Assembly (NCBI RefSeq): GCF_048403405.1
Contig: NZ_CP183129.1
Reading direction: 5' to 3' (one strand)
Length of the DNA stretch: 64,000 nucleotides
DNA from: Escherichia coli
GTDB lineage: Bacteria > Pseudomonadota > Gammaproteobacteria > Enterobacterales > Enterobacteriaceae
Shown here: positions 20,325 through 37,108 of the stretch, piece by piece
How positions within the stretch are numbered: the first letter of the stretch is position 1
Layout of the letters: every line of letters starts with the position of its first letter
Program-made: the position numbers and the translations under genes
The notes under the pieces: model-generated
What the model saw: only the letters and a program-made list of their open reading frames with translations
What the model was told of the DNA's origin: nothing
The model's database searches: none

Positions 20325-20349
20325 GGTGAGTTATGGTATATAAAACAAA

Positions 20350-20616: not shown

Positions 20617-20673
20617 GGTGCTGTCCTGTAAAGCAATGCGCCTGCGTTCCTCAAACTATGGCGCTGATAGTGG

Positions 20674-20979: not shown

Positions 20980-21000
20980 CTGTAATCCTCTCAATGAAAG

Positions 21001-21077: not shown

Positions 21078-21175
21078 CCTTGTTAATGCAAGGTGCAGAA
21101 ACGACGAAACCCCGCACTGTAGGAGCAGTAACGGGGCTTCTAACCACCAACGATAGCAAGATTATCGAGGCAGCT

Positions 21176-21692: not shown

Positions 21693-21698
21693 ATAATC

Positions 21699-21998
21699 AT
21701 GAGAACATATTTATCTGGCTTGACTGCCAGCGGTTATGCACACCCTAAAATTATCCCCGGCGCTATTTATCTGGATAAGAACGGTAACAGAGTAACGGTA
21801 AAAGAACTGATGTTTGACCGTGTTTATTTTATTCGTGATGGCTATTCATTTCATAGTTCGCTGAACGTGGAGATCTTTATTTGCAGATTCCGGCGGGAAA
21901 TCCCGCTTTCCAGAAATAACCATGTGTCATGTATGGATGTTGATAAAAAACTACAGGAACTGAAAAACATGATTGCCGCGTGGAGAGAGCAGAAATGA
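21699..21998 (+). CDS. hypothetical protein
   Basis: 99-aa ORF whose stop overlaps the primase start (ATGA). No confident family assignment. Confidence 0.5.
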   Translation: MRTYLSGLTASGYAHPKIIPGAIYLDKNGNRVTVKELMFDRVYFIRDGYSFHSSLNVEIFICRFRREIPLSRNNHVSCMDVDKKLQELKNMIAAWREQK

Positions 21999-23812: not shown

Positions 23813-23824
23813 ACTTATGGAATA

Positions 23825-24049
23825 ACTGTTCACCACTGTTCACCCTGTCATAAATATCTTTTATATCAGTATATTATAGGGTTAACAGTTATTTATGAAC
23901 TGTTCACCAAACTATTCACTGTTCACCTTTTTGATTGTTTATTGAGCTTCAAGGGTGAACAGTGGTGAACAGTTGGTGAATAGTTTTTGTGAAACTGTTC
24001 ACCCCTTAACCTTATGAATTAAAAGATAAAATATCAAAAGGTGAACAGG
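23825..24049. repeat. replication-origin iterons: ACTGTTCACC decamers in both orientations around AT-rich spacers
   Basis: Direct copies at 23825, 23835, 23899, 23918 and 23994. Inverted copies (GGTGAACAGT) at 23954, 23964 and 24040 (9/10 match). Degenerate copies at 23911 and 23975. Confidence 0.75.
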
Positions 24050-24196
24050 TGAAGGGTTAAAACGCAAAAATTTTAATTTACTGCTGTGAGATAAAGACTA
24101 TGACAGTAAAGCACACAAAAACACGCGCTTGATTTGACCGAATACTGGTTAAAAATGACTACAAATTAGATAAATTAGATAAAATAGGAAGAAATA

Positions 24197-24457
24197 ATGC
24201 CGATTCTGACGCATGAAATAAACAATTATTTTGATCAATTCGGACTTCATGATATTGCTTCAATGCCTACCACTCAGTACCGTCAGGCCCTTGCAAATGG
24301 TGGTTTACTGTGGATTGATCATCATGATTTTATTCGTAGCACGCTATCAGATGAAATCCTTGCAACAAATCAAGAGCAGGTTAATGTTTTGATTGAGCAT
24401 TTGCAGGTTTTAAGGAAAAAAATGCCACTACCTCCTAATTGGATGAGTGAGAAATGA
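24197..24457 (+). CDS. hypothetical protein (86 aa)
   Basis: AGGAAG SD before the ATG. AT-rich, no recognisable motif. Ends at the shared hairpin terminator. Confidence 0.5.
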   Translation: MPILTHEINNYFDQFGLHDIASMPTTQYRQALANGGLLWIDHHDFIRSTLSDEILATNQEQVNVLIEHLQVLRKKMPLPPNWMSEK

Positions 24458-24460
24458 ATT

Positions 24461-24489
24461 ATATGGCCTGGCTCTTTGCCAGGCCATAT
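24461..24489. terminator. bidirectional hairpin terminator between convergent genes
   Basis: ATATGGCCTGG ctctttg CCAGGCCATAT (11-bp stem) between the stops at 24457 (+) and 24492 (-). Confidence 0.7.
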
Positions 24490-24491
24490 AC

Positions 24492-25001
24492 TCAAAGCAT
24501 TGTTAACAAGGCGGACGCACCAGCACCAACGAGACTGGCTACCGTACTATTATTTAGTAAATCCTTAAGCAAATTTTTTGCCTGAGGATCTTGTGATTGA
24601 GAAACTTTTTCAACAAGTTCAGTTATGCTGAGATTTACAATAAGATTGTTATGCTCACCGAGTTGAACCTGTGTACCGGATATGTTACCAATGTTAAATG
24701 TATTTTGGCTAGATTGTTTTGGTTTATGTTCATTAGCAGTCAGATTCTCGACTTTTAATGTAAGCATGTGAGGGTGATTAGTACCAACATTGAGTGTACC
24801 TCCTGGTAAAAATGACATATCAATTACTTTTAATATTATTTCCCCCTTCCCTAGTTTTTGAGTGATTTCATCTCCAATATTAATATCTGGTTCTTCAGTA
24901 TAAGGGATTAGCACTTTTTTTTCAGCTGAGTTTCTTTTCCCCTTGTATTCAACTCCTGCGATTGTGAATTTTTCTGGATATGCCATGACGTTAAGATCCA
25001 T
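24492..25001 (-). CDS. hypothetical 169-aa protein: beta-rich N-domain, RHIM-like 'FNIGNISGTQVQLGEHNN' module, hydrophobic Gly/Ala-rich C-tail (candidate effector)
   Basis: Strong SD GAGGAG 7 nt upstream, 29 nt after the upstream gene's stop. The C-terminus is STVASLVGAGASALLTML. The motif translation was checked by hand against the DNA at about 24636-24707. Confidence 0.7.
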   Translation of the reverse strand: MDLNVMAYPEKFTIAGVEYKGKRNSAEKKVLIPYTEEPDINIGDEITQKLGKGEIILKVIDMSFLPGGTLNVGTNHPHMLTLKVENLTANEHKPKQSSQNTFNIGNISGTQVQLGEHNNLIVNLSITELVEKVSQSQDPQAKNLLKDLLNNSTVASLVGAGASALLTML

Positions 25002-25030
25002 TATGTTGCTCCTCGTGATCGCTTTTGCGT

Positions 25031-25807
25031 TTAACTAGTAGATTTGAAAGTGTATTTTGTCTGTGTGTTAAGGTTTGATATTAGAGCTTCATAGTTTTCT
25101 TTACTCAGTAAGTTTTTTGAGTAGGCCTTCTTAAGAAGGTTTTTTGAGAGAGTAATAATTTCTTTTTCACCAGTTGATGCAATTTTTGAGAAGAACTCAG
25201 AGAGCTCTTGTATATTAATATTGTTATTTGTACCAAGTTGTACGTATTGGCTATTTACAGTAGCTATGTTGAATATGTTTTGTTTTGGATGCGTTTTTTT
25301 TAGCTTTTCAATTTCAGCATGTTCTATGATTTTTTGAGAGATACTTTCAATATAACCACTAACGTCTTTTTTTTCTGGGAAGGAAAACCCATCACCTCTT
25401 AATATTTTATCTGTTTCGGCCATTTCATAGTAAAGCCTGCGAATCATCACAAGTAATAGTAATTTAGCCTCCTCGATTGACTCCTCTATTGAGAATTGAC
25501 ATTCAATTGCTAACGCGGAGGTCTGCTCTAAAACAATTTCTGAGTTATTTTCAATGTAAGGATTGATAAAACCATTCCAAAAAATTTGAACGGGAGTACC
25601 TTTAAATGCCAAACCTTGATAGCATATTTCTGTTCCATCATATGCAGTAACTTTCATGGGGGGGCCTGCATTGAAAAATCGCCATCTATGAATCAGTTTG
25701 GTTAATCTTTCGTCAATCTCCCGAACTAATTTATAAGTCCTTTTGAACAATGGGGATGGTCGCATCCCAGGAACAGCAAGAATTTCTTTTGTCACTTGAA
25801 TCTCCAT
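25031..25807 (-). CDS. hypothetical 258-aa protein carrying the same 'FNIATVNSQYVQLGTNNN' module (candidate sensor/partner)
   Basis: Long ORF in an AT-rich segment and first gene of a two-gene operon. The motif was checked by hand against the DNA at about 25211-25282. No known catalytic motifs recognised. Confidence 0.65.
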   Translation of the reverse strand: MEIQVTKEILAVPGMRPSPLFKRTYKLVREIDERLTKLIHRWRFFNAGPPMKVTAYDGTEICYQGLAFKGTPVQIFWNGFINPYIENNSEIVLEQTSALAIECQFSIEESIEEAKLLLLVMIRRLYYEMAETDKILRGDGFSFPEKKDVSGYIESISQKIIEHAEIEKLKKTHPKQNIFNIATVNSQYVQLGTNNNINIQELSEFFSKIASTGEKEIITLSKNLLKKAYSKNLLSKENYEALISNLNTQTKYTFKSTS

Positions 25808-26054
25808 AGTTTATCAGCATTTTTGTAAATTATTTGTGTGTTAACATTCAAGACTGTTCGTAACAAAAATACCTTATTTACATCAATTTTTTGATCCATA
25901 TCTTAAATAGTGGCACTCAGACGTGAGCCGCCACTGTTGCCGTCCGATCCCCTGCGCGATGCCGGGTTGATCTGCGAGATGCCGAGAGTGTCGGGCGGCG
26001 CTCCCTCCGTGTTGGTTTCACGTCCTGAATCTTAACCAATACGAGAAAACCTTC

Positions 26055-27224
26055 ATGAAGAAATTAATCGAGCTCCGCCAGCAAAAAAACGCCCTGAAAA
26101 ACCAGATGCGATCCCTGCTGGAAAAAGCCGACAGTGAAAACCGCAGCCTGAACGATGACGAGGGCAAACAGTTTGATGAACTGCGTGCAAAAGCTGATTC
26201 CCTCGATACAGACATTTCCCGCCTCGAGTCTGTGGCTGATGAAGAACGCAGCAAGCCAGGAACGGGCATCCAGAAAGTATCATCTGATGAATTGCGTAAC
26301 TACATCGTAACCGGAGATGTGCGATCTCTGTCCACCAGCACTGACAGCGGCAGGGATGGCGGATATACCGTAATTCCTGAGCTTGATCGCGAAGTCATGC
26401 GCCAGCTACAGGATGACAGTGTTATGCGCGTGATCGCGACCGTGAAGACTGCAAAATCAAATGAGTTTCAGAAACTGGTTTCCACTGGCGGCGCAACTGT
26501 AGGACGAGGCACAGAAGGCAGCGCACGCAGTGAAACCAACACCCCGAAAATTGAACGCGTAACCATCAAGCTGAACCCGATCTACGCCTACCCGAAAACC
26601 ACGCAGGAAATCCTAGATTTTTCAGAGGTGGATATTCTGGGCTGGTTATCCTCCGAAATTGCCGACACGTTCGCCAGCACCGAAGAGGATGATTTTGTTA
26701 ATGGCAACGGTAACGGCAAGCCGAAAGGCTTCATGGCTTACACCCGTGCGGCGACCAGTGACAAAACCCGCGCTTTTGGCACCATTGAAAAAATGGTAGC
26801 GGCAAGTGGAACCGCCATTACAGCGGACGAACTGATCGACATTCTCTACAAGCTGAAAGCGAAATACCGCAAAAATGCCGTCTGGGTGATGAACTCGGGC
26901 ACGGCAGGGACACTACAGAAGCTGAAAAATGAGAACGGCGATTATATCTGGCGCGACAGCCTTAAAGAAGGTGCGCCGGATATGTTGCTTGGTCGTCCTG
27001 TTTACTGCCTGGAGTCCATGCCGGACATCGGCGCAGGAAAAGCACCGCTAGCGGTTGGCGATTTCAGTCGTGGTTATTTCATCGTTGATCATGTAACAGG
27101 GATTCGCACCCGACCGGACAACATTACTGAACCCGGATTCTACAAGGTCCACACGGATAAATATCTGGGCGGTGGTGTGGTGGATTCAAACGCCATCAAA
27201 ATTCTGGAAATGAAAGCTGGCTAG
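26055..27224 (+). CDS. HK97-family major capsid protein
   Basis: 389 aa with an N-terminal coiled-coil delta/scaffold domain (MKKLIELRQQKNALKNQMRSLLEKAD...) followed by an HK97-fold-type sequence. Confidence 0.9.
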   Translation: MKKLIELRQQKNALKNQMRSLLEKADSENRSLNDDEGKQFDELRAKADSLDTDISRLESVADEERSKPGTGIQKVSSDELRNYIVTGDVRSLSTSTDSGRDGGYTVIPELDREVMRQLQDDSVMRVIATVKTAKSNEFQKLVSTGGATVGRGTEGSARSETNTPKIERVTIKLNPIYAYPKTTQEILDFSEVDILGWLSSEIADTFASTEEDDFVNGNGNGKPKGFMAYTRAATSDKTRAFGTIEKMVAASGTAITADELIDILYKLKAKYRKNAVWVMNSGTAGTLQKLKNENGDYIWRDSLKEGAPDMLLGRPVYCLESMPDIGAGKAPLAVGDFSRGYFIVDHVTGIRTRPDNITEPGFYKVHTDKYLGGGVVDSNAIKILEMKAG

Positions 27225-27237
27225 TCATGAGTAAGGA

Positions 27238-27258
27238 GGAGGCTGCGGCCTCCTTTTT
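27238..27258 (+). terminator. hairpin + T-run just after the capsid gene (candidate partial terminator/attenuator)
   Basis: GGAGGC tgcg GCCTCC TTTTT, located between the capsid stop and the protease start. Confidence 0.45.
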
Positions 27259-27278
27259 CAGCTTTATGGAGTACACCG

Positions 27279-27839
27279 ATGAAAAACACCGATTTTGAAA
27301 TCCGCACATCTGAACTGACCGCCAGCAATAAAAAGCTGGTGGGGTATGCCGTTCGCTGGAACAGCCTTTCAGAAATTATCTGGGACGAATTCCGCGAACA
27401 GTTCACGCCGGGGGCTTTTGCTGACTATCTGGCGGCGGGTAATGATGTGCGCTGCCTGTATGAGCATGACTATACCCAACTGCTGGGGCGCACCAAATCC
27501 GGCACTCTGGTACTGACTGAGGATAACACCGGGTTACGTTTTGAACTGACACCGCCGGATACCCAGCTTGGAAAAGATGTGCTTACGCTGGTGGAGCGTG
27601 GCGACATTACAGGAATGAGCTTTGGTTTTCGCGCATTATGCGAGGAGTGGAGTATCGCGCAAAAACCGTATTTGCGTACCGTAACCGCCGCTGAACTCCG
27701 TGAAATCACAATAACGTCGATGCCTGCTTATCCAGAATCTGGCGTGGAGATTGCCCACCGTTCGTTGTTTGCACAGCACCCTGAATTATGCCCGACAGGA
27801 AATAATCGTCATCGCTGGTCTGAGCTGGCGGGGTTGTGA
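27279..27839 (+). CDS. HK97-family prohead maturation protease
   Basis: 186 aa. The pattern GYAVRWN...FTPGAF...VRCLYEHD...LLGRT..GTL.L.ED..GL.F......T..G.D.L.L..RGD..GMSFGF matches the S78/U35 prohead protease family. Confidence 0.88.
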   Translation: MKNTDFEIRTSELTASNKKLVGYAVRWNSLSEIIWDEFREQFTPGAFADYLAAGNDVRCLYEHDYTQLLGRTKSGTLVLTEDNTGLRFELTPPDTQLGKDVLTLVERGDITGMSFGFRALCEEWSIAQKPYLRTVTAAELREITITSMPAYPESGVEIAHRSLFAQHPELCPTGNNRHRWSELAGL

Positions 27840-27840
27840 T

Positions 27841-29055
27841 ATGTGGTGGCCTTTTAGTCGTAAAAAAAGCGAGCAGCGTAACCTGTCCATTGATGATTTT
27901 CTGGCGCTGTCCGGCGTACCGAATACCGGATCCGGAGAATATGTTTCTGCCGGGACGGCTGAATCATTGCCTGCAGTGATGAATGCGGTTTCTGTCATCG
28001 CTGAGGCGGTGGCCACGATGCCGTGTTATCTGTATCTGGTACGTAATGACAAGGGCAGGGAGGCGCGGGAATGGCTGGACAGTCACCCGGTAGATATTCT
28101 GCTGAATGAGCAGCCTAATTCGTGCCAGACACCTTACCAGTTTAAACGCACAATGATGCGTCACTGCCTGCTGAACGGTAACGCCTATGCGGTTATTGAG
28201 TGGGGGCAGGACGGGCAGCCAAAATCACTTCATCCTTATGCGCCGGGGTGTGTTGTACCGGAACGCACAGGCGCACACAAATACCGCTATACCATCACCG
28301 AACCCTATACAGGAACGGTGCGCACGTATTTACAGGAAGAAGTTCTGCATCTCCGCTATGCCTCGGATGATGGCTTTCTGGGGCGCTCCCCCGTCACGAT
28401 TTGCCGTGAGGCACTTGGGCTTGGCCTTGCTCAACAGCGCCACGGAGCCAGCATTATGAAAGATGGCATGATGGCGGCAGGGATTATCACGTCAGGCGAA
28501 TGGCTGGACGGCGTGAAAGGTAAACAGGCATTGGATGCTCTGGAACGCTACAAGGGGGCGAAAAATGCCGGAAAAACGCCAATCCTTGAAGGGGGCATGG
28601 ATTACAGGCAACTGGGAATGAGTAACCAGGATGCGGAATGGCTGGCCTCCCGTCGCTTCTCCATTGAAGACATCGCCCGCATGTTCAACGTATCGCCTAT
28701 TTTTCTGCAGGAATACAGCAACAGCACCTACAGCAATTTCAGCGAGGCAAGCCGCGCGTTTCTGACCATGACAATGCGCCCGTGGCTGGCGAACTTCGAA
28801 CAGCAAATCAAGGCCGCTTTGCTGGTGGCTTCTCCCGTACCTGGTACCCGTTATCTGGTTGAGTTTGATTCAGCCGATTTATTACGCGCCACACCCACCG
28901 AACGTTATGCCACGTATGAGAAAGGGATTAAGAACGGGATCATGAATCCGAACGAAGCCCGTGAGCGTGAGGGTATGCCGCCGCGTGAAGGTGGTGATGA
29001 GTTCAGCCAGGCATGGAAACAGACTGTGGAAATTAAAGGGAGAAAAGATGAGTGA
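27841..29055 (+). CDS. HK97-family portal protein
   Basis: 404 aa from MWWPFSRKK, with the start abutting the protease stop. Portal-type sequence (NPNEARE..G.PP..GGD C-terminal region). Confidence 0.88.
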   Translation: MWWPFSRKKSEQRNLSIDDFLALSGVPNTGSGEYVSAGTAESLPAVMNAVSVIAEAVATMPCYLYLVRNDKGREAREWLDSHPVDILLNEQPNSCQTPYQFKRTMMRHCLLNGNAYAVIEWGQDGQPKSLHPYAPGCVVPERTGAHKYRYTITEPYTGTVRTYLQEEVLHLRYASDDGFLGRSPVTICREALGLGLAQQRHGASIMKDGMMAAGIITSGEWLDGVKGKQALDALERYKGAKNAGKTPILEGGMDYRQLGMSNQDAEWLASRRFSIEDIARMFNVSPIFLQEYSNSTYSNFSEASRAFLTMTMRPWLANFEQQIKAALLVASPVPGTRYLVEFDSADLLRATPTERYATYEKGIKNGIMNPNEAREREGMPPREGGDEFSQAWKQTVEIKGRKDE

Positions 29056-29350
29056 AGCCAGAATTACACCTGATGAAGTCAGGGCACATCTTCGACTTGA
29101 TGATGATTTATCCGGTGAAGGCGAACTTCTGAAAATGTATACCGATGCGGCGCTGGAAGCCTGCCAGAAGCATATCGGGAAACGTTTTGAAGACGGGCTG
29201 GAATTTACCCCGGCAATGCGTGTTGGTTGCCTGATGTACATCGCTTTCCTGTACGAGAACCGGGAAGCGGTTTCACCAGTGGAGCACTCGGAACTGCCTA
29301 TGGCTATTTCTGCGCTCTGGTCAGTTTATCGTGACGTAGGGGTGTACTGA
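29048..29350 (+). CDS. gp6-like head-tail connector (adaptor) protein
   Basis: 100 aa: MSEARITPDEVRAHLRLDDD...LLKMYTDAALEACQKHIG, a typical gp6-like/DNA-packaging-connector N-terminus. It overlaps the portal stop. Confidence 0.75.
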   Translation: MSEARITPDEVRAHLRLDDDLSGEGELLKMYTDAALEACQKHIGKRFEDGLEFTPAMRVGCLMYIAFLYENREAVSPVEHSELPMAISALWSVYRDVGVY

Positions 29351-29790
29351 TGCCGTGGCAACCATTAAGGCGATGCACTGAGCCTGGCTGTAATAAGCGC
29401 GTGAAGTCCGGCAAGTGTGAAGAGCACAGGCGGGCTGCATGGCGTGCAGAGGATGCCAGACGGGGACACCGCCGCGCGCGCGGGTATTCCCGACAGTGGG
29501 ACAAATACCGCGCCCTGTACCTGAGCAAAAACCCGTTATGCGTGCGTTGTCTGGCTAAGGGGATTTATACGCCAGCTCTTGTGGTGGATCACATCATTCC
29601 CATCAATGGCGGCGGTGATGTTCTCTTCTGGCCTGAGTGGAATCACCAGGCATTGTGCCAGACGTGCCACAACCGTAAGACGACACGGGAAGATCCAGCC
29701 ACGAAAGCAAACCGTAAAGCGGGCATGTATCACGAGCAGGAAGAACGGGCGGCACACCGTAACGACTGGATGTATGGCGATGATGACTGA
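29350..29790 (+). CDS. HNH endonuclease (packaging-associated)
   Basis: 146 aa with the HNH core VVDHIIPINGGGD...NHQALCQTCHNRKT and Cys-rich zinc motifs. It lies directly upstream of terS/terL, as in HK97-like cos phages. Confidence 0.88.
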   Translation: MPWQPLRRCTEPGCNKRVKSGKCEEHRRAAWRAEDARRGHRRARGYSRQWDKYRALYLSKNPLCVRCLAKGIYTPALVVDHIIPINGGGDVLFWPEWNHQALCQTCHNRKTTREDPATKANRKAGMYHEQEERAAHRNDWMYGDDD

Positions 29791-30078
29791 ACAGGAGCAA
29801 ACCAGGCTGATACGTGGACTGATAAGGCAGCGTGACACATGGAAGACACAGGAGACAGAGCACAAAGCCAACAGGACAGGGCGCACAAAACTCACCACAG
29901 CGAAGCGATTAACCGACCGTGACCGCGAGGTCATGGAATGTTTTCGCAATCGCTGGTGAGGCCGTCAGAGGGGGTGGGGGTGGTTTTCAGGACGAAACCG
30001 TCCCTGCCGGACACCGACCGCCCCCTCAAATTTTTGTGCACGGTAATTTTTTTGAAAATAATTGGGCGAAAAAAGAAC

Positions 30079-30435
30079 ATGGCAAGACCACCAAAAGCCC
30101 CCGCTTACCTGGATGAAATCGCGGTCAGGCAGTGGAAGGAAAAATCGCGCCAGCTTTCCGGGCGGGAAGACCTTACCCCCGCCGACTGGAGCAATCTGGA
30201 ACTGTATTGTGTTAACTACTCCATATACCGCAAAGCCGTCGAAGACCTTGCGACGCGCGGGTTCAGCATTGTTAACAGTCAGGGCAGCGAGAGCAGAAAC
30301 CCCGCACTGAGCGCAAAGGCTGACGCAGAAAGAATAATGATCAAAATGGCTTCTTTGCTGGGTTTTGACCCGGTAAGCCGTCGCAGAAATCCACCGGAAA
30401 CAGAGGAAGAGGACGAACTTGACCGCCTGGCATGA
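30079..30435 (+). CDS. terminase small subunit (P27 family)
   Basis: 118 aa from MARPPKAPAYLDEIAVRQWKE..., typical of the P27-family TerS N-terminus. The longer ORF-track start was rejected. Confidence 0.8.
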   Translation: MARPPKAPAYLDEIAVRQWKEKSRQLSGREDLTPADWSNLELYCVNYSIYRKAVEDLATRGFSIVNSQGSESRNPALSAKADAERIMIKMASLLGFDPVSRRRNPPETEEEDELDRLA

Positions 30436-32080
30436 GTACGCAGAAGGCGTAAAAAACGGCAAAATTACGGCCTGTAAACGACTGAAACAGGCCGTTAAAC
30501 GGTATTTTTCTGACCTTGAAAACTCCCTTTACACGTTCGATCCGGAGGTCGTGGAGCGGTTTATTGCCTTTTCCCGGGTGTGTCCGCACGTAAAAGGCGC
30601 AATGCGCGGTAGTCCCATTGAACTGGAGCCGTGGCAGCAGTTCGCCTTTGCCTGCATCCTGGGCTTTAAGGTTAAGGCCACCGGACGGCGCAAATACACC
30701 AGCGCATTCATTGAAGTACCGCGAAAAAATGCCAAATCCACGGTCGCCGCTATCCTGGCTAACTGGTTTCTGGTTATGGAAAACGGGCAGCAGGATATTT
30801 ACACCGCCGCCGTGAGTCGTGATCAGGCGCGGATCGTGTTTGATGATGCGCGTCAGATGTGCCTTTTATCCCGACCGTTACGAAAGCGGGTAAATATTCA
30901 GGCACACAAGGTGATACACCCGAAAACTAACAGCCTGTTAAAGCCACTGGCAGCAAAAGCGGCAACCATTGAAGGTACAAATCCGAGTCTTGCCATTGTG
31001 GATGAATATCACCTGCACCCTGACAACGGGGTTTATTCCGCACTTGAGCTGGGGATGGGGGCGCGTCCGGAGGGGCTGTTATTTGCCATCACCACATCGG
31101 GGAGCAACGTTGTTTCAGCCTGTAAACAACACTATGACTATTGCTGTCAGATACTGGATGGTGAAGAGATGAACGAATCCATGTTCGTTCTGATTTACGA
31201 GCTGGATGATGAAAGCGAGGTTGACGATCCGGCCATGTGGATAAAGGCGAATCCAAATATCGATGTTTCCGTCGATCGTGAAAAACTGGCCTCAACCATC
31301 CAGAAAGCGCGGGGTATTCCGTCGCAGTGGGTGGAAATGCTCACCAAGCGATTCAATATCTGGTGTCAGGGGGCTACGCCGTGGATGGGTAACGGTGCAT
31401 GGGCGGAGTGCGCCGGAACGTTCGCGGAGGCGGATTTATACGGGCAGGAGTGCTACGCGGGACTGGACTTATCATCAACCAGCGATATTTCCAGCGTGTG
31501 CTATGCCTTTCCGGTCGGTAAAAAGATTATGCTGGTTTCCCGTCACTATCTGCCGGAATTTCAGCTACAGAACCCCGCCAATAAAAACCGCGCCATCTAT
31601 CGCCAGTGGGTAAAGGCGGGCTGGATACGCACAACACCGGGTGACTGCATTGATTATGACCGTATCCGTGATGACATCATGGCGGATGCAGAGAATTTCA
31701 ATATCAGGCTGGTGGGCTTCGATACATGGAACGCCACGCACCTGAGGACGCAGCTACAGGGGGCAGGATTTGAGGTGGAGCCGTTCCCGCAAACATACCT
31801 TCGTTTCAGTCCGGCGGCGAAATCGTTCGAAGTTTTTGTTAACCGGAAGGTGATTGTGCATCGTGGTGATCCGGTGCTGGCCTGGTCAATGAGTAATGTT
31901 GTGATGCAGAGTGACGCGAACGCCAATATCAAGCCGAACAAGAAAAAATCATCCAACAAGATAGACCCGAGCGTTGCGGCGCTGATGGCGTTTGGCACAT
32001 TCCAGGCAGAGCATGAGGAATTTGCATTTGATATGAGCGACAGCCACAAAGAGCGACTTGCGGCGTTTGATGGGGTATGA
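30419..32080 (+). CDS. terminase large subunit
   Basis: 553 aa with a TTG start overlapping the terS end. It has an ATPase Walker-A-like VPRKNAKST and Walker B AIVDEYH, followed by a nuclease domain. Confidence 0.9.
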   Translation: MTAWHEYAEGVKNGKITACKRLKQAVKRYFSDLENSLYTFDPEVVERFIAFSRVCPHVKGAMRGSPIELEPWQQFAFACILGFKVKATGRRKYTSAFIEVPRKNAKSTVAAILANWFLVMENGQQDIYTAAVSRDQARIVFDDARQMCLLSRPLRKRVNIQAHKVIHPKTNSLLKPLAAKAATIEGTNPSLAIVDEYHLHPDNGVYSALELGMGARPEGLLFAITTSGSNVVSACKQHYDYCCQILDGEEMNESMFVLIYELDDESEVDDPAMWIKANPNIDVSVDREKLASTIQKARGIPSQWVEMLTKRFNIWCQGATPWMGNGAWAECAGTFAEADLYGQECYAGLDLSSTSDISSVCYAFPVGKKIMLVSRHYLPEFQLQNPANKNRAIYRQWVKAGWIRTTPGDCIDYDRIRDDIMADAENFNIRLVGFDTWNATHLRTQLQGAGFEVEPFPQTYLRFSPAAKSFEVFVNRKVIVHRGDPVLAWSMSNVVMQSDANANIKPNKKKSSNKIDPSVAALMAFGTFQAEHEEFAFDMSDSHKERLAAFDGV

Positions 32081-32367
32081 CGAGAATGACTGAAACTGAT
32101 CTACTAAAAATAATTCGCCGCATTACCGGAATCAGTCAGCAGCCTGACGAACAGGCTACACAGCCGGACAGCGTGATAGCCGAAAATTACGCGCGTGTGG
32201 TGGCTGAGGTGATGCGCCGTGACGGTATTGAGCTTAACGGCGTGGATATGCGCAACATACGAACCAGAGTCCTTGAGTTGCTGGCATACCGTCGCCGTTC
32301 TCAACAACGGAGGGAGAGCGCGAAAAATACTTACCAGTGGAAGAAGCCGGAACGACTGCGGCGGTAA
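32077..32367 (+). CDS. hypothetical protein (96 aa) coupled to terL
   Basis: Its start overlaps the terL stop (ATGA). Basic C-terminus. No family recognised. Confidence 0.45.
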   Translation: MTRMTETDLLKIIRRITGISQQPDEQATQPDSVIAENYARVVAEVMRRDGIELNGVDMRNIRTRVLELLAYRRRSQQRRESAKNTYQWKKPERLRR

Positions 32368-32432
32368 CTTGCTGATATTCCCGATAACGCAAAATTGCGT
32401 TGGCTGGCATAGTGCAAATTTGCACGATGACC
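32364..32432 (+). repeat. unit 1 of a paralogous ~70-nt element (TGATATTCCCGA ... GTTGGCTGG ... perfect palindrome)
   Basis: Shares GTAACT, TGATATTCCCGA and GTTGGCTGG at identical 26-nt spacing with unit 2. Contains ACGCAAaaTTGCGT and the perfect 14-bp palindrome GTGCAAATTTGCAC (32412-32425). Confidence 0.6.
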
Positions 32433-32667
32433 TAACCCATTGACTTTTCTTCAATCCTCAATTTTGAGGAGGCCGGAAGATAAAAAACTGTCAAAACTTG
32501 TCATGCAAAACGTTACCAGCACGGCTATTGATTTATTCGGCCCCTGCAACTGCTCCCAGAATGGTGGGGATCTGAAATCCGACCCTGAAAAAGTGCGCAA
32601 AAGTGGTACGCAAAAATTAGCGTCCAGCCACAGCCACCAGCTAGACAGAACGCCCAGAGCATTGTCA

Positions 32668-32740
32668 GTAACTGGTTGATATTCCCGACAGCCCCAAAAT
32701 GGGTTGGCTGGTGGGTGAGTTGCAGATCTGCAACTCGACC
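32668..32740 (+). repeat. unit 2 of the paralogous element
   Basis: Has the same conserved blocks as unit 1 and contains the perfect 16-bp palindrome GTTGCAGATCTGCAAC (32719-32734). Confidence 0.6.
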
Positions 32741-33058
32741 ATGAAACTACGGAAACTACCCGTAGTTTGGGTAGTAAGAGTAACACCCAGATTCTGGGGC
32801 TTACTCGCGATACCCAAATAAAGGGTATCGGTGGACGAAATATTATTTCTCATATGTGAGCACCGAAGGCGGAATTCCGCCCTCGGTTATCTATCATGCA
32901 CAGGGAGAAGCAGGGCAAAACTCTTGCCATGGCGTCTTCCGGACCGCTCACCACACCGTTTTTATCCCCATTAAAAATGAAAAAACACATCACTGCGGAG
33001 ACATAACCACTGGCAGGTATCTATTCTATTTATTATTGTTCGGTTTCGTTCGTGCTTA

Positions 33059-33080
33059 TGTGCAGTCAGTGGTGCAGTCA
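33059..33080 (+). repeat. second copy of the 22-nt TGTGCAGTCAGTGGTGCAGTCA repeat
   Basis: Identical to 18008-18029. It lies 5 nt inside the right-hand 80-bp att repeat. Confidence 0.55.
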
Positions 33081-33085
33081 TTTTA

Positions 33086-33165
33086 ATAAAAAAGGCGCTT
33101 CCCCATGCCGAGTAGCGCCTTTTTAATCAAGCATTTAGCTAACCTGAATTAGTTCATGCCGTATT
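33086..33165. repeat. attR: 80-bp direct repeat overlapping the 3' end of the intact fis gene and its terminator
   Basis: Identical to 17801-17880. Positions 33149-33165 are the last five sense codons plus the stop codon of fis. Confidence 0.9.
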
Positions 33166-33445
33166 TTTTCAATTTTTTACGCAGCGTACCACGGTTGATG
33201 CCCATCATCAGCGCAGCACGGGTCTGGTTACCACGGGTGTATTGCATCACCATGTCCAACAGGGGCTGTTCTACTTCAGCCAGTACCAGCTCATAGAGGT
33301 CATTCACATCCTGACCGTTCAGTTGAGCAAAATAGTTCTTCAGTGCCTGTTTAACCGAGTCACGCAGGGGTTTTTGGGTTACCTGATCCTGAGAGTTAAC
33401 GGTAGAAACGGTCAGTACGTCAGAATTTACGCGTTGTTCGAACAT
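33149..33445 (-). CDS. fis: nucleoid-associated global regulator Fis
   Basis: 98 aa, [98 protein letters not shown], matches my recollection of E. coli Fis. Confidence 0.98.
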
Positions 33446-33470
33446 AGTTCTGTCAGCTCTTTATTTCTGT

Positions 33471-34436
33471 TTACGCAAAATTTTCGAAGTATGCCTCCAA
33501 CGCCTCCAGCTGTTCGCTGGCATCCTCAATGGCGTTGAATGTGCGCCGAAACTGGTCATTTGGAGCGTGTTCCTGGAGATACCAGGAAACGTGTTTACGT
33601 GCAATTCGGTACCCTTTTGCCGGACCATAAAAGTCATGCAGTTCCCGAACGTGCGCGCAAAGCAAGCGCTTAACCTCTGCCAAAGGCAGCGGGGGCAGCA
33701 ACTCCCCAGTGTCCAGATAATGCTGGATTTCCCGAAAGATCCAGGGTCTTCCCTGAGCTGCGCGGCCTATCATCAGGGCATCCGCCCCTGTATAGTCGAG
33801 CACAGCTCTGGCTTTAAGCGGGTCAGTAATGTCGCCATTCGCGATAACCGGAATGGAAACTTTCTGCTTAACTGCCCGAATACTGTCGTACTCAGCTTCT
33901 CCATTGAACAAACAGGCGCGTGTACGGCCATGAATGGTCAGAGCCTGAATGCCACAGTCTTCAGCCAGTTGGGCAATCTCTTCGCAGTTACGGTGTTCCG
34001 GTGCCCAGCCGGTGCGAATCTTCAGGGTAACAGGAACGTCCACTGCATTGACGACCTCGGTAAGGATCGATTTAACGACATCCGGGTACTGCAAGAGGGC
34101 TGAACCTGCGAGCTTGCGATTCACTTTTTTAGCCGGGCAACCCATATTGATATCAATAATCTGGGCACCGCTTTCCACGTTAATACGTGCTGCATCTGCC
34201 ATTTCTTTCGGATCGCTACCAGCAATTTGCACGGTGCGAATACCGGGTTCATCAATGTGCACCATCCGTAAACGAGATTTGTCGCTTTCCCAAACCTGAG
34301 GGTTAGAAGACATCATCTCGGATACTGTCAATCCGGCTCCCATCTCGTAGCACAACGTCCGAAAAGGTCTGTCTGTAATGCCAGCCATGGGCGCTGCGAT
34401 CAGGCGATTTCTGAGCTGATATTGTCCGATGCGCAT
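33471..34436 (-). CDS. dusB: tRNA-dihydrouridine synthase B
   Basis: 321 aa with a Dus-family TIM-barrel sequence; lies upstream of fis in the same operon. Confidence 0.95.
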
Positions 34437-34475
34437 GAGTTAAGAAATGACCATACTGTGACTGCAAGGCGGCGT

Positions 34476-34503
34476 ATATTACGCATTTTTTGCACGAGAT
34501 GAA
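34476..34503 (-). promoter_or_regulatory. dusB-fis promoter (-35 TTCATC, -10 TAATAT, GC-rich discriminator)
   Basis: The minus strand reads TTCATCTCGTGCAAAAAATGCGTAATATACGCCGCC, matching the described fis P as I recall it. Confidence 0.6.
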
Positions 34504-34763
34504 AGGCCAAACTTTGACCAATCCTCTGAGATGGATCAAAGAATTGCATTTAAAATGAGCGTGGCGCGATAATTACTCATAAAAATCATCATATTAGAAA
34601 ATGTTGACTAAAATTTACACTCCAAGAAATTTGAGTAAGTTCTCAATTTTTCTTTATGAATGAAAATTTTGGCACGCAAATTTGCGTAAATAATCAGCAA
34701 ATTTACGTGCCTTTTGTGAGCTTGCTCGCACTTCGGCTTGGTCACCTTACGGTGATGCGAAGG

Positions 34764-35645
34764 TTAATTCTTACGACCGGTAATGCGGCACCACTCTTCT
34801 TTTTCCACGACCGGGTCCAGTGCGAAGCTGTCGGCATAAGCTTCGCAAACGCTCTCTGCCTGGCTTGCCAGAATACCGGAAAGGCCCAGCAAACCGCCTG
34901 AAACCGGCAGGACGCTGATTAACGGTGCCAGTTCACGTAATGGGCCTGCAAGGATGTTAGCGACCACCACGTCGGCTTTCATTTCTTCTGGCTGATCTTT
35001 CGGTAAGTAGAGTTCCAGACGGTCAGAGACGCCATTACGTTCCGCGTTGTCGCGGCTGGCCTGAATCGCCTGCGGATCGATATCAATACCAATGGCTTTT
35101 GCTGCACCCAGTTTCAGCGCCGCGATAGCCAGAATGCCGGAACCACAGCCAAAGTCGATGACTGTTTTACCGGTTAAATCGAGGCTGTCGAGCCATTGCA
35201 GGCACAGAGAGGTAGTTGGATGGGTACCCGTACCAAACGCCAGCCCTGGGTCTAACATTACGTTGACGGCGTTTTCGTCCGGCACATCACGCCAGCTTGG
35301 GCAGATCCACAGTCGTTCACCAAAGCGCATCGGGTGGAAATTATCCATCCATTCGCGCTCCCAGTCTTTATCTTCCAGTTGTTCGATTTTATGCGCGAAG
35401 ACTGCGCCGAGCAGCGGATGGTTTTCCAGAATCGCCACCACGTCGTTCATATCGGTTTCAGCGTCGAACAGACCAATCACATCGGTGTCGCCCCACAGGC
35501 GCGTTTCGCCCGGCAGCGGCTCAAACACAGGCGTATCGTGGGTATCCTGAAAAGTGATAGAAACGGCACCCGCTTCCATCAGCGCATCGCTAAGATCTTC
35601 CGCGTTCGCGCCGGTGGTGTTCAGTTTCAGTTGGATCCAAGGCAT
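34764..35645 (-). CDS. prmA: ribosomal protein L11 methyltransferase
   Basis: 293 aa with the AdoMet motif [15 protein letters not shown]; synteny. Confidence 0.95.
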
Positions 35646-35656
35646 GGCAAAACTCT

Positions 35657-37108
35657 TTATTTATCAGTAGTCAAAACGGTAGCTTGCGGGACGGATGTAC
35701 CGAAACGGTTTCCGACCAGGAAAGCCAGCAAACTTAGTAGTAACGAGGGCACGATAGGGTGGAAGCCCAGGTACTGAATATTCAGCGTCGCGAGTACGGC
35801 ATACAGCACGCCGCCAACGATCATCGCACTTAGCGCGCCTTTGGCGTTGGCGCGTTCCCAGTAAAGACCCAGCACCAGCGGCCACAGGAAAACGGCTTCC
35901 AGCCCACCGAAGGCCAGCAAATTCAGCCAGATGATCATTTCTGGCGGCTTCCAGGCGGCAAGCAGCAGCAACGCACCGAGAACTAACGTAATTACCGCCG
36001 ACATCCGCTTCAGACGCGTCTCGTTTTGCATTTGATCCGGACGGATATTCAAATAGAGATCTTTAATGATCGTAGCGGAACTTTGCAGCAACTGGGCATT
36101 GATCGTCGACATGATCGCAGCCATAGGTGCAGCCAGGAAGATCCCGGCAGCAAACGGTGGCAACACTTTTACCATTAACGTCGGGATCACCAGGTCCGGT
36201 ACGGTGAGATCGGGGATCACCGCCCGACCTAACGCTCCGGCCAGGTGCATACCGAACATCAGGATTGCGACCACAATCGTACCGATGATGATCCCCCGAT
36301 GTACGGCTTTGCTGTCTTTATAAGAGATACAGCGCACCGCAGTATGCGGCAGGCCAATCACGCCAAAACACACCAGCACCCAGAACGACGTCATAAACGC
36401 AGGCGACAGAATATCGTCAGCGCCTTGTGGCGTAACCAGTTGCGGATCGATGGTTTGCAGCGTCTCTACCGCATTGCTTAAGCCGCCAGCAGCATGGACC
36501 ACGCCAATAAGCAGCACAATGGTGCCAATCAGCATCACCAGCCCTTGCATGGTGTCGTTCAGCACGCTGGCGCGAAAGCCACCAAAGGCGGTGTAGAGCG
36601 CAATGCTGATGCCAAAAATCAGCAAACCTGTTTCATAAGGAATACCCGCCGCAGTTTCCAGCAGGCGCGCACCGCCGATAAACTGCACGGCCATCGCACC
36701 AACGAACGCAACCAGCAAACTCAAACTCGCCAGCCACACCAGCAGACGACTCTGGTAGCGGGCAAATAGCATATCGTTCAGCGTCACCGCATTGTAGCGG
36801 CGCGCAAGAATCGCGAACTTCTTGCCGAGAATACCGAGCGAAAGCCAGACCGCAGGAAGCTGAATCATCGCCAGCAATACCCAACCCAGGCCGTATTTAT
36901 AAGCAGCGCCAGGCCCGCCGATAAACGAACTGGCACTGATATAGGTCGCGGTGAGCGTCATCGCTAGCACAATACCGCCCATAGAGCGGCTACCGAGGAA
37001 ATACTCATTAAGGAAGGTGCCGGTGCTCCGTTTACGCATCGCATAAACAGAGATACCGAACACCACCACCAGATAGGCGACCAGCGGTAGAATCACTTCA
37101 AGCTGCAT
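35657..37108 (-). CDS. panF: sodium/pantothenate symporter
   Basis: 483 aa from [21 protein letters not shown]-family membrane protein; overlaps the end of yhdT. Confidence 0.93.

What the first reader, a model, noticed from the sequence alone, without database searches (positions are those of the whole stretch)
32364..32740. Two paralogous ~70-nt units, each ending in a perfect palindrome, in a ~0.7-kb apparently non-coding tail of the island
Seen directly: 32364-32432 and 32668-32740 share GTAACT, TGATATTCCCGA and GTTGGCTGG with identical 26-nt spacing between the last two blocks. Each unit has a short hairpin between those blocks (ACGCAA-aa-TTGCGT in one, CCCA-aaa-TGGG in the other). Each ends in a perfect palindrome built on TGCA...TGCA: GTGCAAATTTGCAC (32412-32425) and GTTGCAGATCTGCAAC (32719-32734). 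The sequence changes in the first hairpin preserve pairing, which suggests selection on structure or on dyad symmetry. The ORFs predicted here (32440-32679 +, 32451-32786 -) lack convincing starts and cut through the repeats. In the excised circle this region lies between terL and attP/int. Candidate roles: packaging (cos/terminase-binding) sites, Xis/AlpA or Int accessory sites of the attP arm, or small structured RNAs. The last would be analogous to the C4/CI antisense immunity RNAs of P1/P4, which is notable because the island also has an Icd-like gene.
Basis: partly seen in the sequence, partly recalled or inferred. Interest (0 to 1): 0.5.

Follow-up and report, generated by a model that had tools for sequence, protein, structure and literature searches.

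The report
Hairpin repeat array ending a phage satellite
The two look-alike 70-base units are real copies of a small repeated DNA module (a host bending-protein box followed by a short hairpin) that fills the non-coding end of a family of E. coli phage satellites; what the module does is still unknown.

Summary
The window holds a capsid-forming phage-inducible chromosomal island (cf-PICI) inserted at fis, with att repeats at 17801-17880 and 33086-33165. Units 32364-32407 and 32668-32711 are 82% identical over 44 nt. They are not a lone pair. A third, more canonical copy lies at 32433-32481. All three belong to a repeat family of about 48 nt found 0-5 times in the non-coding tail of enterobacterial PICIs. 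Copies always run in the same direction as the late operon and nearly always follow a conserved 93-aa gene (ORF93). Each unit has three parts: TAAC-N4-YTGATW, which matches the IHF consensus; a hairpin of 4-7 bp whose stem sequence varies but stays complementary; and RRNYCGG. The tails hold about 12 perfect short hairpins per kb, against about 1 per kb in coding or shuffled DNA. The units are not cos, not Int arm sites and not C4/CI-like RNAs. An EcCICFT073-like PICI has none, so they appear dispensable for the PICI architecture (its mobility was not tested). The best reading, at low to moderate confidence, is an operon-end element like E. coli BIME-1/RIP repeats. I found no description of this family. 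Function needs experiments.

The parts
32086..32367 (+). ORF93, the last gene of the late (packaging) operon. Its TAA stop codon forms bases 1-3 of the first unit. It is a small helical protein with an arginine-rich C-terminus.
   Evidence: It is annotated as a hypothetical protein in RefSeq. It matches phrog_1561 (unknown function), with no Pfam or PDB match. The AlphaFold model is all-helical with no significant fold match. In 48 of 56 loci found through the unit pattern alone, a homologue lies just upstream on the same strand.
32364..32407 (+). Unit u1 (divergent 'class B' member): GTAACTTGCTGATATTCCCGAT + hairpin AACGCAA/TTGCGTT + GGCTGG.
   Evidence: It gives a partial covariance-model match of 12.7 bits. 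It fits the looser IHF consensus YAANNNNYTGATW.
32412..32425 (.). Perfect palindrome GTGCAAATTTGCAC. In relatives it is a longer hairpin, for example CATAGTGCAAAATTGCACTATG.
32433..32481 (+).
   Evidence: It is the best covariance-model hit in the window (36.7 bits, E 1.5e-8).
32482..32667 (.). A rare middle segment, found complete in only about 42 E. coli genomes. It holds a diverged copy of the start of block B (32569-32590), a Chi complement CCACCAGC at 32634-32641, and two terminator-like hairpins on the minus strand.
32668..32711 (+). Unit u2 (class B): GTAACTGGTTGATATTCCCGACAG + hairpin CCCA/TGGG (alternative outer helix CAGCC/GGCTG) + TTGGCTGG. Its 3' end overlaps a Chi octamer GCTGGTGG at 32707-32714.
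   Evidence: (16.3 bits, E 0.008). It is the only exact match to YAANNNNTTGATW inside the tail upstream of the att repeat.
32712..32834 (.). Block B, a discrete 123-nt module of four consecutive hairpins: GAGTTGCAGATCTGCAACTC; AAACTACGG..CCGTAGTTT; GAGTAA..CCCAGA/TCTGGG..TTACTC; CGATACCC..GGGTATCG.
   Evidence: It is 92-97% identical in many tails whose flanks differ, and it is duplicated around an insert in L003, L008 and L012. Both strands are predicted to fold.
32862..32887 (.). Strong palindrome ACCGAAGGCGGAATTCCGCCCTCGGT.
   Evidence: repeat I4; it is conserved in L002 and L003.
33059..33080 (+). Doubled motif TGTGCAGTCAGTGGTGCAGTCA, the probable Int arm-type site. A second copy lies at 18008-18029, just upstream of int.
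   Evidence: The same layout is described for PICI integrases in PMC10111431. Analogous motifs GGTGTAGTTAATGGTGTAGTTAAT and GGTGTAGTCACTGGTGTAGTCA occur in L002, L005 and L004.
33086..33165 (.). attR, an 80-bp direct repeat of attL (17801-17880). It contains the 3' end of fis, the fis terminator, and an IHF consensus on the minus strand at 33125-33137.
29960..30078 (+). Context: the HNH/small-ORF to terS gap, the probable cos site of this cf-PICI (G/C-rich GAGGGGGTGGGGGTGG...CCGCCCCCTC followed by an A/T-rich stretch).
   Evidence: This is inferred from gene order and sequence, and from the known hnh-cos-terS layout of HK97-type cos phages (my own knowledge). It was not tested.
23826..24048 (.). 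Context: the replication origin. It has nine exact copies of CTGTTCACC, five direct and four inverted, just after the primase gene. None occurs in the tail.

Best explanation
What it is (shown). The two units are copies of a PICI-specific direct repeat of about 48 nt. A unit has three parts. First comes a conserved single-stranded-looking box, TAAC-N3-YTGATWNTTYYCGRAA, whose invariant bases TAA....TGA are the defined positions of the IHF consensus YAANNNNTTGATW. Second comes a hairpin of 4-7 bp whose stem sequence differs from copy to copy but stays complementary. Third comes RRNYCGG, which can pair with the YCGR of the box to form an outer helix. Units occur 0-5 times, sometimes in tandem every 48-54 nt. 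They always run in the direction of the late operon. They sit in the 0.4-1.1 kb non-coding, palindrome-packed tail between the last late gene (ORF93) and the Int arm sites of attP. The window has three copies, and copies are gained and lost by recombination between them.

How it most likely works (inferred). The array is a cis-acting operon-end element, analogous to the E. coli BIME-1/RIP elements, which combine REP hairpins with an IHF site. When transcribed as the untranslated 3' end of the late mRNA, the chain of hairpins would block 3'-to-5' exonucleases and mark processing points. On the DNA, the IHF boxes would bend the segment next to attP. The units are accessory rather than essential. 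They are not the packaging site, not Int arm sites and not a C4/CI-type immunity RNA.
For: Family and strand. The covariance model R1 gives about 150 hits in 84 related loci. Every hit above 20 bits is on the ORF93 strand and downstream of its stop codon. In IMG/VR, 56 loci were found by the unit pattern alone, and 48 of them have ORF93 just upstream on the same strand.

Structure. On the seed alignment 85.5% of cells pair, against 69.9% after shuffling and 28-53% with slid partners. Seven of 11 pairs change on both sides. On 51 distinct sequences 11 of 11 pairs do so, although that alignment was fitted to the model. At least 12 different stem sequences occupy the same position.

IHF box. T1 A2 A3 T9 G10 A11 are invariant. 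Of 49 distinct units, 27 match the strict consensus and 44 the looser one. Tails carry 53 strict sites per 30.5 kb, against 8 per 108 kb upstream.

Hairpin density. Tails have 11.7 perfect hairpins of at least 6 bp per kb, against 0.8 in the coding DNA upstream and 1.2 in shuffled tails. The window tail folds with z = -6.1 on the plus strand and -7.2 on the minus strand.

Other points. The region is non-coding. No intrinsic terminator is predicted on the plus strand within the tail. The real terminator is the fis hairpin in the att core. Units are absent from the Rpp-type PICI L143, and L002 carries a hybrid unit.
Against: There are no expression data. Neither transcription through the tail nor any effect on mRNA stability has been shown.

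Mismatches inside tail hairpins show no strand bias: 14 are of the G.T type and 13 of the A.C type. The minus strand folds at least as well as the plus strand. Several palindromes are complementary right through their centre, which an RNA hairpin does not need.

IHF binding rests on a consensus match only, and class B units, including u1, fit only the looser consensus. REP/BIME elements are dispersed around the chromosome, whereas these units are confined to one locus type.

The conserved 3' motif and the invariant first loop base A are not explained by this model.
Confidence: 0.4

Rival explanations
1. A DNA-only architectural array. The units are phased IHF sites that fold the long arm next to attP, or the replicating circle, into a nucleoprotein structure. 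That structure would help Int/AlpA-mediated excision and integration, or DNA compaction. The palindromes would be secondary.
For: The invariant bases match the IHF consensus. Tandem copies are spaced 48-54 bp apart. PICI attP arms carry a conserved IHF-consensus site next to the Int doubled motif, which suggests that these integrases use IHF. Hairpin mismatches show no strand bias.
Against: The units lie 400-700 bp from the att core, beyond the only arm-type sites. They are the same whichever integrase and att site the island has. They are absent from some PICIs. The model does not explain why variable stems stay complementary or why all copies share one orientation.
Confidence: 0.2
2. Functionless or selfish repeats. 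The units are minisatellite-like products of unequal crossing-over between PICI tails, a region that is also rich in Chi. They persist because they do no harm.
For: Copy number ranges from 0 to 5. L002 has a hybrid unit, L129 has a duplicated and truncated ORF93 followed by units, and block B is duplicated in L003. The 3' end of ORF93 (GAAGAAGCCGGAA) resembles the 3' part of a unit (GAGGAGGCCGGAA, repeat D8). Chi is enriched in the tails.
Against: Compensatory changes in two helices and invariant box positions across about 50 distinct copies indicate purifying selection on both structure and sequence. A 10-fold excess of perfect hairpins is not expected from neutral duplication.
Confidence: 0.15
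3. nut-like RNA sites. ORF93 would bind the nascent hairpins through its arginine-rich C-terminus and make RNA polymerase resistant to termination, or would otherwise regulate the transcript. In the excised circle, late transcription could then cross the fis terminator in the att core and run into int and alpA.
For: The ORF93 C-terminus YRRRSQQRRESAKNTYQWKK looks by eye like the lambda N arginine-rich motif TRRRERRAEKQAQWK, and it is nearly invariant. ORF93 and the units are tightly linked, and its stop codon lies inside the first unit. The box-spacer-hairpin layout and a purine-rich internal loop resemble RNA sites bound by arginine-rich peptides. The att core holds a strong terminator.
Against: The loops are 3-4 nt and A/U-rich, not GNRA-like pentaloops. 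The box is not a boxA. The gene sits at the end of the operon rather than its start. The ORF93-bearing PICI L143 lacks units.
Confidence: 0.07
4. Trans-acting small RNAs, the first reader's C4/CI analogy. Units or block B would be processed into small regulatory RNAs that act on helper-phage or island transcripts.
For: The region is strongly structured. Block B is a discrete module kept at 92-97% identity. PICIs are reported to carry CI/seqA homologues elsewhere, in the Bro zone (PMC10111431).
Against: Rfam gives no hit even at E <= 10. No promoter or terminator frames the units. The window holds no complementary target for the conserved box. The variable stems argue against base-pairing specificity.
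Confidence: 0.06
5. Packaging signals: cos or pac sites, or terminase (TerS) binding sites.
For: The position just after the terminase genes fits. IHF sites are part of lambda cosB. The sequence GCGGCGGTAACTTGC weakly resembles lambda GCGGCGACCTCGC by eye.
Against: The units are shared by PICIs with three different packaging systems. Lambda-type cosN lies upstream of terS/rpp in L002, L005 and L143, and L143 has both cos1 and an inverted cos2 around rpp but no units (PMC6739421, PMC9026076). The cf-PICI keeps the hnh-gap-terS layout.
Confidence: 0.03

Closest known systems
E. coli BIME-1 / RIP (RIB) elements: REP palindromic units flanking an IHF site
   Same: Both are short extragenic hairpins combined with an IHF-consensus box. 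Both lie after the last gene of an operon, in transcribed non-coding DNA. Both vary in copy number and occur in tandem or mosaic arrangements. In both, structure is conserved more than sequence.
   Different: There is no similarity to the REP consensus or its GTAG tag. The hairpins are much shorter (4-7 bp against about 12-15 bp). The copies are direct rather than inverted pairs. They are confined to one locus type, the PICI tail, and are not dispersed in the chromosome. The strict unit pattern found nothing in 185,579 species-representative genomes.
Lambda nut sites (boxA-spacer-boxB) with the N protein
   Same: Both have a conserved single-stranded box, a spacer, and a short hairpin whose stem sequence varies between copies. 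Both have an adjacent small protein with an arginine-rich segment.
   Different: The box is not boxA. The loops are not GNRA-like pentaloops. The elements lie at the 3' end of the operon and are repeated. ORF93 shows no detectable homology to N.
Lambda-type cos sites of phages and classical PICIs (cosQ-cosN-cosB with IHF site I1; PICI cos1 and cos2)
   Same: Both lie close to terminase genes and contain an IHF consensus.
   Different: The cosN sequence lies elsewhere in the same elements. There are no R-type repeats. The units are present whatever the packaging type and are absent from a PICI that has cos1 and cos2.
Integron attC sites
   Same: Both begin at or overlap the stop codon of the upstream gene with ...TAAC, resembling the inverse core RYYYAAC. 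Both have a conserved outer helix, an internal bubble and a variable inner hairpin. In both, structure matters more than sequence.
   Different: No GTTRRRY core pairs with the TAAC end. There are no gene cassettes between copies. There is no integron integrase. The length is 48 nt, below the 57 nt or more that I recall for attC sites (my own knowledge).
P1 C4 / P4 CI antisense immunity RNAs
   Same: Both are small structured non-coding elements in a P4-like satellite that also carries an Icd-like gene.
   Different: There is no Rfam match, no complementary target, no promoter or terminator, and the location is different.
MITE-like repeats with IHF sites (Neisseria Correia elements, enterobacterial ERIC/IRU)
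   Same: Both are repeated, hairpin-forming, often co-transcribed elements that carry an IHF site.
   Different: The units have no terminal inverted repeats or target duplications. They have a single orientation and a single locus type, and they show no sign of mobility.

Membership tests
REP/BIME-1 (RIP) elements | REP consensus sequence (GTAG-tagged imperfect palindrome of about 35 nt) | tested here: not met
   Unit hairpins are 4-7 bp with unrelated, variable stems. No GTAG tag or REP consensus is visible.
REP/BIME-1 (RIP) elements | IHF consensus between or next to the palindromic units | tested here: met
   Of 49 distinct units, 27 match YAANNNNTTGATW and 44 match YAANNNNYTGATW. Actual IHF binding was not tested.
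REP/BIME-1 (RIP) elements | Hundreds of dispersed chromosomal copies in extragenic, transcribed positions | tested here: not met
   In the 64-kb window the units occur only in the island tail. In related loci they occur only after ORF93. The strict pattern found nothing in the GTDB species representatives.
Lambda-type or PICI cos site | cosN sequence with two-fold symmetry, cut to give cohesive ends | tested here: not met
   No match to GGGCGGCGACCT with up to 2 mismatches lies in any tail. It lies upstream of terS/rpp instead.
Lambda-type or PICI cos site | Presence in every element that uses that terminase | tested here: not met
   L143 has cos1 and an inverted cos2 but no units. The units are shared by cf-PICIs, terS-type PICIs and helper-embedded PICIs.
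Lambda-type or PICI cos site | Ends of the packaged DNA map to the site | not testable with these tools
   This needs sequencing of virion DNA ends.
Tyrosine-integrase arm-type sites | Repeats specific to the integrase, close to the core on both arms | tested here: not met
   That role fits the doubled motif at 33059 and 18008 (PMC10111431). The units do not change with the integrase or att site.
C4 / CI antisense RNA (Rfam RF01695 and relatives) | Match to the covariance model | tested here: not met
   No hit in 20000-36000 at E <= 10, and none in the whole window at gathering score.
C4 / CI antisense RNA (Rfam RF01695 and relatives) | Complementary target sequences (seqA/seqC-like) in the element | tested here: not met
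   The conserved box has no reverse-complement match in the window at up to 3 mismatches.
Lambda nut / N antitermination | boxA consensus and a boxB hairpin with a GNRA-like pentaloop | tested here: not met
   The box is TAACYNNYTGATW, and the loops are AUU, AAU, AAC, AGC or AAAA.
Lambda nut / N antitermination | Arginine-rich protein that binds the hairpin RNA | tested here: inconclusive
   ORF93 has a conserved arginine-rich C-terminal helix, but BLASTP finds no similarity to N. Binding cannot be tested here.
Integron attC | Paired R''(RYYYAAC)/R'(GTTRRRY) boxes that bracket a gene cassette | tested here: not met
   No GTTRRRY partner is visible downstream of the units in the sequences read. 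No ORFs lie between units.
Intrinsic terminator | G+C-rich hairpin followed by a U tract | tested here: not met
   No terminator-like site is found on the plus strand in 31900-33300. The unit hairpins are followed by RRNYCGG.

The most novel reading that the evidence does not exclude
ORF93 and the unit array together form a satellite-specific RNA-protein module. The arginine-rich C-terminal helix of ORF93 would bind the box-plus-hairpin RNA units made just downstream of its own gene. It would then reprogram the transcript or the polymerase by N/nut-like antitermination or RNA protection. After excision, late transcription could then cross the terminator-containing att site into int and alpA, closing a transcription loop that exists only in the circular form.
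Probability: 0.07. Interest if true: 0.75.

Novelty: new variant of a known kind. Interest (0 to 1): 0.4.

Why it matters
PICIs and cf-PICIs are compact satellites of 10-15 kb, yet they keep 0.4-1.1 kb, or 4-8% of the genome, as a non-coding tail packed with hairpins. None of the PICI papers I could search describes this tail. The known cis sites of these islands (cos, ori, attP arm sites) all lie elsewhere, so the tail is an unassigned conserved feature. If the units stabilise or insulate the late transcript, or build an IHF-bent structure next to attP, they would be a new control point for satellite transfer. They would also be a design element for synthetic PICIs. If they are neutral, they are still a useful marker of recombination between islands. 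For annotation, the result removes two spurious ORFs and a wrong cos assignment.

Tried and rejected
Rfam: a scan at E <= 10 over 20000-36000 and a gathering-score scan of the whole window found nothing in the island.

Coding: the two ORFs across the region have no Pfam match; in PHROGs the minus-strand ORF has none and the plus-strand ORF only hits at E 0.25 and 0.27. Tails in relatives are also free of ORFs.

cos: no lambda-like cosN lies in any tail.

crr-like replication site: the ori iteron CTGTTCACC clusters at 23826-24048 and is absent from the tail.

Phage origin: only seven weak hits in 50,697 phage records, none to the units.

Motifs compared by eye and rejected:
- RfaH ops (GGCGGTAG against GGCGGTAA; internal units lack it).
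- Tus Ter core (only GTAACT is shared).
- Sigma-54 -24/-12 promoter.
- Sigma-70 promoters on either strand.
- Type III toxin-antitoxin RNA repeats (the copies are not identical and no toxin gene is present).
- CRISPR I-E repeat mimic (only CGCCAGCGG and GGGGAAACC are shared, in one unit type).
- IS200/IS605 or REP-RAYT ends (variable hairpins, no transposase).
- Three-frame stop-codon block (only two frames are covered).

ORF93: PDB sequence search, Pfam, a 1.84-billion-protein HMMER search, an AlphaFold model and a Foldseek search of the PDB gave no functional assignment. BLASTP against lambda N found nothing.

Wider distribution: two scans of the GTDB species representatives, one with the protein and one with the unit pattern, found nothing.

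Strand test for RNA: mismatch types in tail hairpins gave 14 G.T against 13 A.C, so the test did not discriminate.
Full report
Context. The window is E. coli chromosome. RefSeq annotation of an identical region (strain D8) shows an island between yhdJ and fis. In order it encodes integrase, an AlpA-like HTH protein, an Icd-like protein, primase, major capsid protein, protease, portal, connector, HNH, terS (P27 family), terL and a small hypothetical protein. This is the gene set of a capsid-forming PICI, or cf-PICI (bioRxiv 10.1101/2022.09.08.507074). The island is bounded by an 80-bp direct repeat at 17801-17880 and 33086-33165, which contains the 3' end of fis and its terminator. The finding lies in the 718-bp stretch between the stop codon of the last gene (ORF93, 32086-32367) and attR.

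Checking the observation. The pair 32364-32407 / 32668-32711 is the longest direct repeat in the region: 44 nt, 82% identical, spacing 304. The degenerate box occurs nowhere else in 64 kb. The two palindromes are at the stated coordinates.

Relatives show a family, not a pair. A blastn search of 5,426 complete E. coli genomes found parts of the tail in 1,422 genomes, but the full arrangement in only about 42. Many relatives cover the two ends of the query within 187 bp. Reading four such loci gave the following:
- L002, a classical PICI at clpS, has one hybrid unit: the 5' part of u1 joined to the 3' part of u2 at GTTGGCTGG.
- L004 has two units, and L005 has at least four.
- L003 has the window's arrangement plus a further insertion.

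Eighty IMG/VR loci fetched through ORF93 gave about 50 distinct unit sequences.

The unit grammar is as follows. It starts with TAAC(C/T)-N3-TGAT(A/T)-N-TT-YY-CG-R-AA. A hairpin of 4-7 bp follows, with a 2-5 nt A/T-rich loop. The unit ends with RRNYCGG. Stem sequences differ widely but stay complementary: AACGCAA, AGCGCAA, AAGTGCA, CAGCC, CCCA, CCCCC, CCTCA, CCTGC, TCCCCC, TCCTCA, TTCGCC and TTTCCAC.

A covariance model was built from 15 canonical copies. In the window it finds a third unit at 32433-32481 as the best hit (36.7 bits, E 1.5e-8). Next come u2 (16.3 bits) and u1 (12.7 bits, partial). In 84 related loci every hit above 20 bits is on the ORF93 strand and downstream of its stop codon.

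I then searched IMG/VR with the unit pattern alone, independently of ORF93. Of the 56 loci found, 48 have an ORF93 homologue just upstream on the same strand, and most of the rest are cut off at a contig end. The same strict pattern, and ORF93 itself, were absent from the 185,579 GTDB species-representative genomes. The family is thus narrow and strain-specific.

Structure. On the seed alignment a two-helix structure pairs in 85.5% of cells. The figure is 69.9% after shuffling partners and 28-53% when partners are slid by one to three columns. Seven of 11 pairs change on both sides. On 51 distinct sequences aligned to the model all 11 pairs do so, but that alignment leans towards the model. 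The outer helix also covaries (G-C to A-U at two positions). G.U at one outer position is common, but those two bases are themselves conserved, so this is weak evidence for RNA. A less biased test tallied single mismatches in all tail hairpins and found 14 of the G.T type and 13 of the A.C type, so no strand preference emerges. The whole tail is a chain of hairpins. It holds 11.7 perfect hairpins of at least 6 bp per kb, against 0.8 in the upstream coding DNA and 1.2 in shuffled tails. The window tail folds with z = -6.1 on the plus strand and -7.2 on the minus strand.

The conserved box. The invariant positions are T1 A2 A3 and T9 G10 A11, with T12 and W13 in canonical copies. These are exactly the defined positions of the IHF consensus YAANNNNTTGATW, which I cite from my own knowledge (Craig and Nash form; WATCAR-N4-TTR on the other strand). 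Of 49 distinct units, 27 match it strictly and 44 match the version with Y at position 8. Non-redundant tails hold 53 strict matches in 30.5 kb, against 8 in 108 kb of upstream sequence. The 14 matches on the opposite strand are mostly a different, conserved site. It lies next to the Int doubled motif at the att core; in the window the corresponding consensus lies inside the att repeat itself, at 33125-33137. PICI attP regions therefore carry a conserved IHF-consensus site, which suggests these islands use IHF. I compared the box with perhaps twenty known motifs, so the match should be discounted accordingly, but it remains the best account of the invariant bases.

What the units are not.

Packaging sites. 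Classical PICIs that carry the same units have the lambda cosN sequence GGGCGGCGACCT upstream of terS/rpp, as the literature describes (PMC6739421, PMC9026076). An EcCICFT073-like, Rpp-type island (L143) has cos1 and an inverted cos2 flanking rpp, then ORF93, and then a tail with no units at all. The cf-PICI keeps the hnh-gap-terS layout, and that gap (29960-30078) has the G/C-rich and A/T-rich character expected of a cos site. This last point is an inference.

Int arm sites. The doubled motif TGTGCAGTCAGTGGTGCAGTCA lies on both sides of the att core. This matches the layout reported for PICI integrases (PMC10111431). The motif changes with the integrase, whereas the units do not.

A second replication site. 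The ori iterons (CTGTTCACC, nine exact copies at 23826-24048) are absent from the tail.

Known RNA families. Rfam gives nothing even at E <= 10.

Terminators and small-RNA genes. No U tracts and no framing promoters are present.

Coding sequence. No significant protein-family match exists and the pieces are mosaic.

How it most likely works. Every step in this paragraph is inferred. The combination of features is this: short extragenic hairpins of variable sequence, an IHF box, a position just after the last gene of a heavily transcribed operon, variable copy number, and gain and loss by recombination. It is closest to the BIME-1/RIP class of E. coli repeats. By analogy, I propose that the array acts in cis at the end of the late operon. 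In the RNA, serial hairpins would protect the 3' end and define processing points. In the DNA, the IHF boxes would bend the segment next to attP. Because units are absent from some PICIs, they are accessory. I give this reading a confidence of 0.4. The rivals are a DNA-only IHF architecture (0.2), neutral recombination products (0.15), nut-like sites for ORF93 (0.07), trans-acting small RNAs (0.06) and packaging signals (0.03).

ORF93. The gene is tightly linked to the units, and its stop codon is bases 1-3 of the first unit. The protein belongs to a narrow family: 39 clusters at 50% identity in 1.84 billion proteins. It has no Pfam, PDB or fold match. The model is all-helical with a long basic C-terminal helix. 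This is the basis of the low-probability novel reading.

Evolution of the window's arrangement. The simplest account of the L002-type hybrid is deletion between u1 and u2 at the shared GTTGGCTGG. The reverse event, insertion by recombination with another tail, is equally possible. The middle segment (32482-32667) contains a diverged copy of the start of block B (repeat D3). The window tail therefore looks like two diverged tandem copies of a unit-plus-block arrangement.

Novelty and verdict. I found no description of these tail repeats in the PICI literature available to me. They are best classed as a new variant of a known kind, extragenic hairpin/IHF repeats. They are specific to enterobacterial PICIs and their function is unproven. 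Interest is moderate at 0.4. The finding identifies an unassigned, conserved 4-8% of these satellite genomes and gives clear experiments, but nothing so far points to a new mechanism.

Noticed in passing
window 17881-33085; tail sites 32634-32641 (CCACCAGC) and 32707-32714 (GCTGGTGG); tails of loci L002-L085: Chi octamers are enriched in the island: 11 in 15.2 kb, against 7 in the other 48.8 kb of the window. They are especially enriched in PICI tails: 48 in 29.7 kb, 33 of them as CCACCAGC on the plus strand, against 39 in 105 kb upstream. To the right of lambda-type cosN the count is 43 (-) against 18 (+). To the left it is 13 (-) against 16 (+). This orientation would be the active one for RecBCD entering at the terS-side cos end, so Chi may protect linear or concatemeric satellite DNA or promote multimer formation. 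The loci are related to each other, so the counts are not independent.
   Followed up: partly
window 23826-24048: The replication origin lies just after the primase gene. It has nine exact copies of CTGTTCACC, five direct and four inverted. The core TGTTCACC is, from my memory, the type I iteron of satellite phage P4 ori/crr. There is no second cluster (no crr-like site) in the island.
   Followed up: partly
window 33059-33080 and 18008-18029: The identical 22-nt doubled motif TGTGCAGTCAGTGGTGCAGTCA lies on both sides of the att core. It is probably the Int arm-type site. Analogous doubled motifs occur in PICIs at the clpS, ydgV and phoQ sites. This layout is already described in PMC10111431.
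   Followed up: yes
window 33125-33137 and 17840-17852 (minus strand); L004 3725, L018 3954, L063 3843 and others: An IHF-consensus site (AATCAA-N4-TTR) lies in the attP region: inside the 80-bp att repeat in this window, and after an A/T-rich run just after the Int doubled motif in PICIs at other attachment sites (clpS, ydgV, phoQ).
   Followed up: partly
window 32086-32367: ORF93 is a PICI-restricted, all-helical 93-aa protein with a nearly invariant arginine-rich C-terminus (YRRRSQQRRESAKNTYQWKKPERLRR). It follows terL in cf-PICIs and terS or cos2 in classical PICIs. Its function is unknown.
   Followed up: partly
window 29960-30078: The gap between the HNH-adjacent small ORF and terS has the motif GAGGGGGTGGGGGTGG...CCGCCCCCTC followed by an A/T-rich stretch. 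It is the likely cos site of the cf-PICI. I found no published mapping of cos for cf-PICIs.
   Followed up: no
L003 3373-3930 (also L008, L012, L037 4060-4240): A segment of about 316 bp has three direct TTGCGGGTTAT repeats and three inverted ATAACCCGC repeats around an A/T-rich core, which looks like an origin. In L003, L008 and L012 it sits between two direct copies of the 123-nt block B; L037 carries the segment but its flanks were not checked.
   Followed up: no
L143 2530-3285 and 3630-3700: In an Rpp-type (EcCICFT073-like) PICI the two cosN copies flank rpp in inverted orientation. The tail after ORF93 starts with four GTGAC repeats (CCGTGACGGAGAGTGACAACCAGTGACACGCCGTGAC) instead of units. 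The same GTGAC module follows the units in L028.
   Followed up: no
L129 (IMG/VR), about 470 bp upstream to 560 bp downstream of the unit at 12330: A truncated 59-aa ORF93-like gene that keeps both termini is followed by units and then by a full ORF93. This is evidence for tandem duplication or recombination of the ORF93-plus-tail module.
   Followed up: no
window 32585-32647 (minus strand): Two terminator-like hairpins with T runs lie on the minus strand inside the rare middle segment, and a weak minus-strand promoter-like site lies at 32504-32477. A short antisense transcript is possible but was not tested.
   Followed up: no
L017 4100-4400 and related loci L072-L085: These tails end in a lambda portal-like gene fragment. 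The loci are therefore helper-embedded PICIs of the kind described in PMC10111431. They carry three tandem canonical units with a 54-nt period (3534, 3588, 3642).
   Followed up: partly
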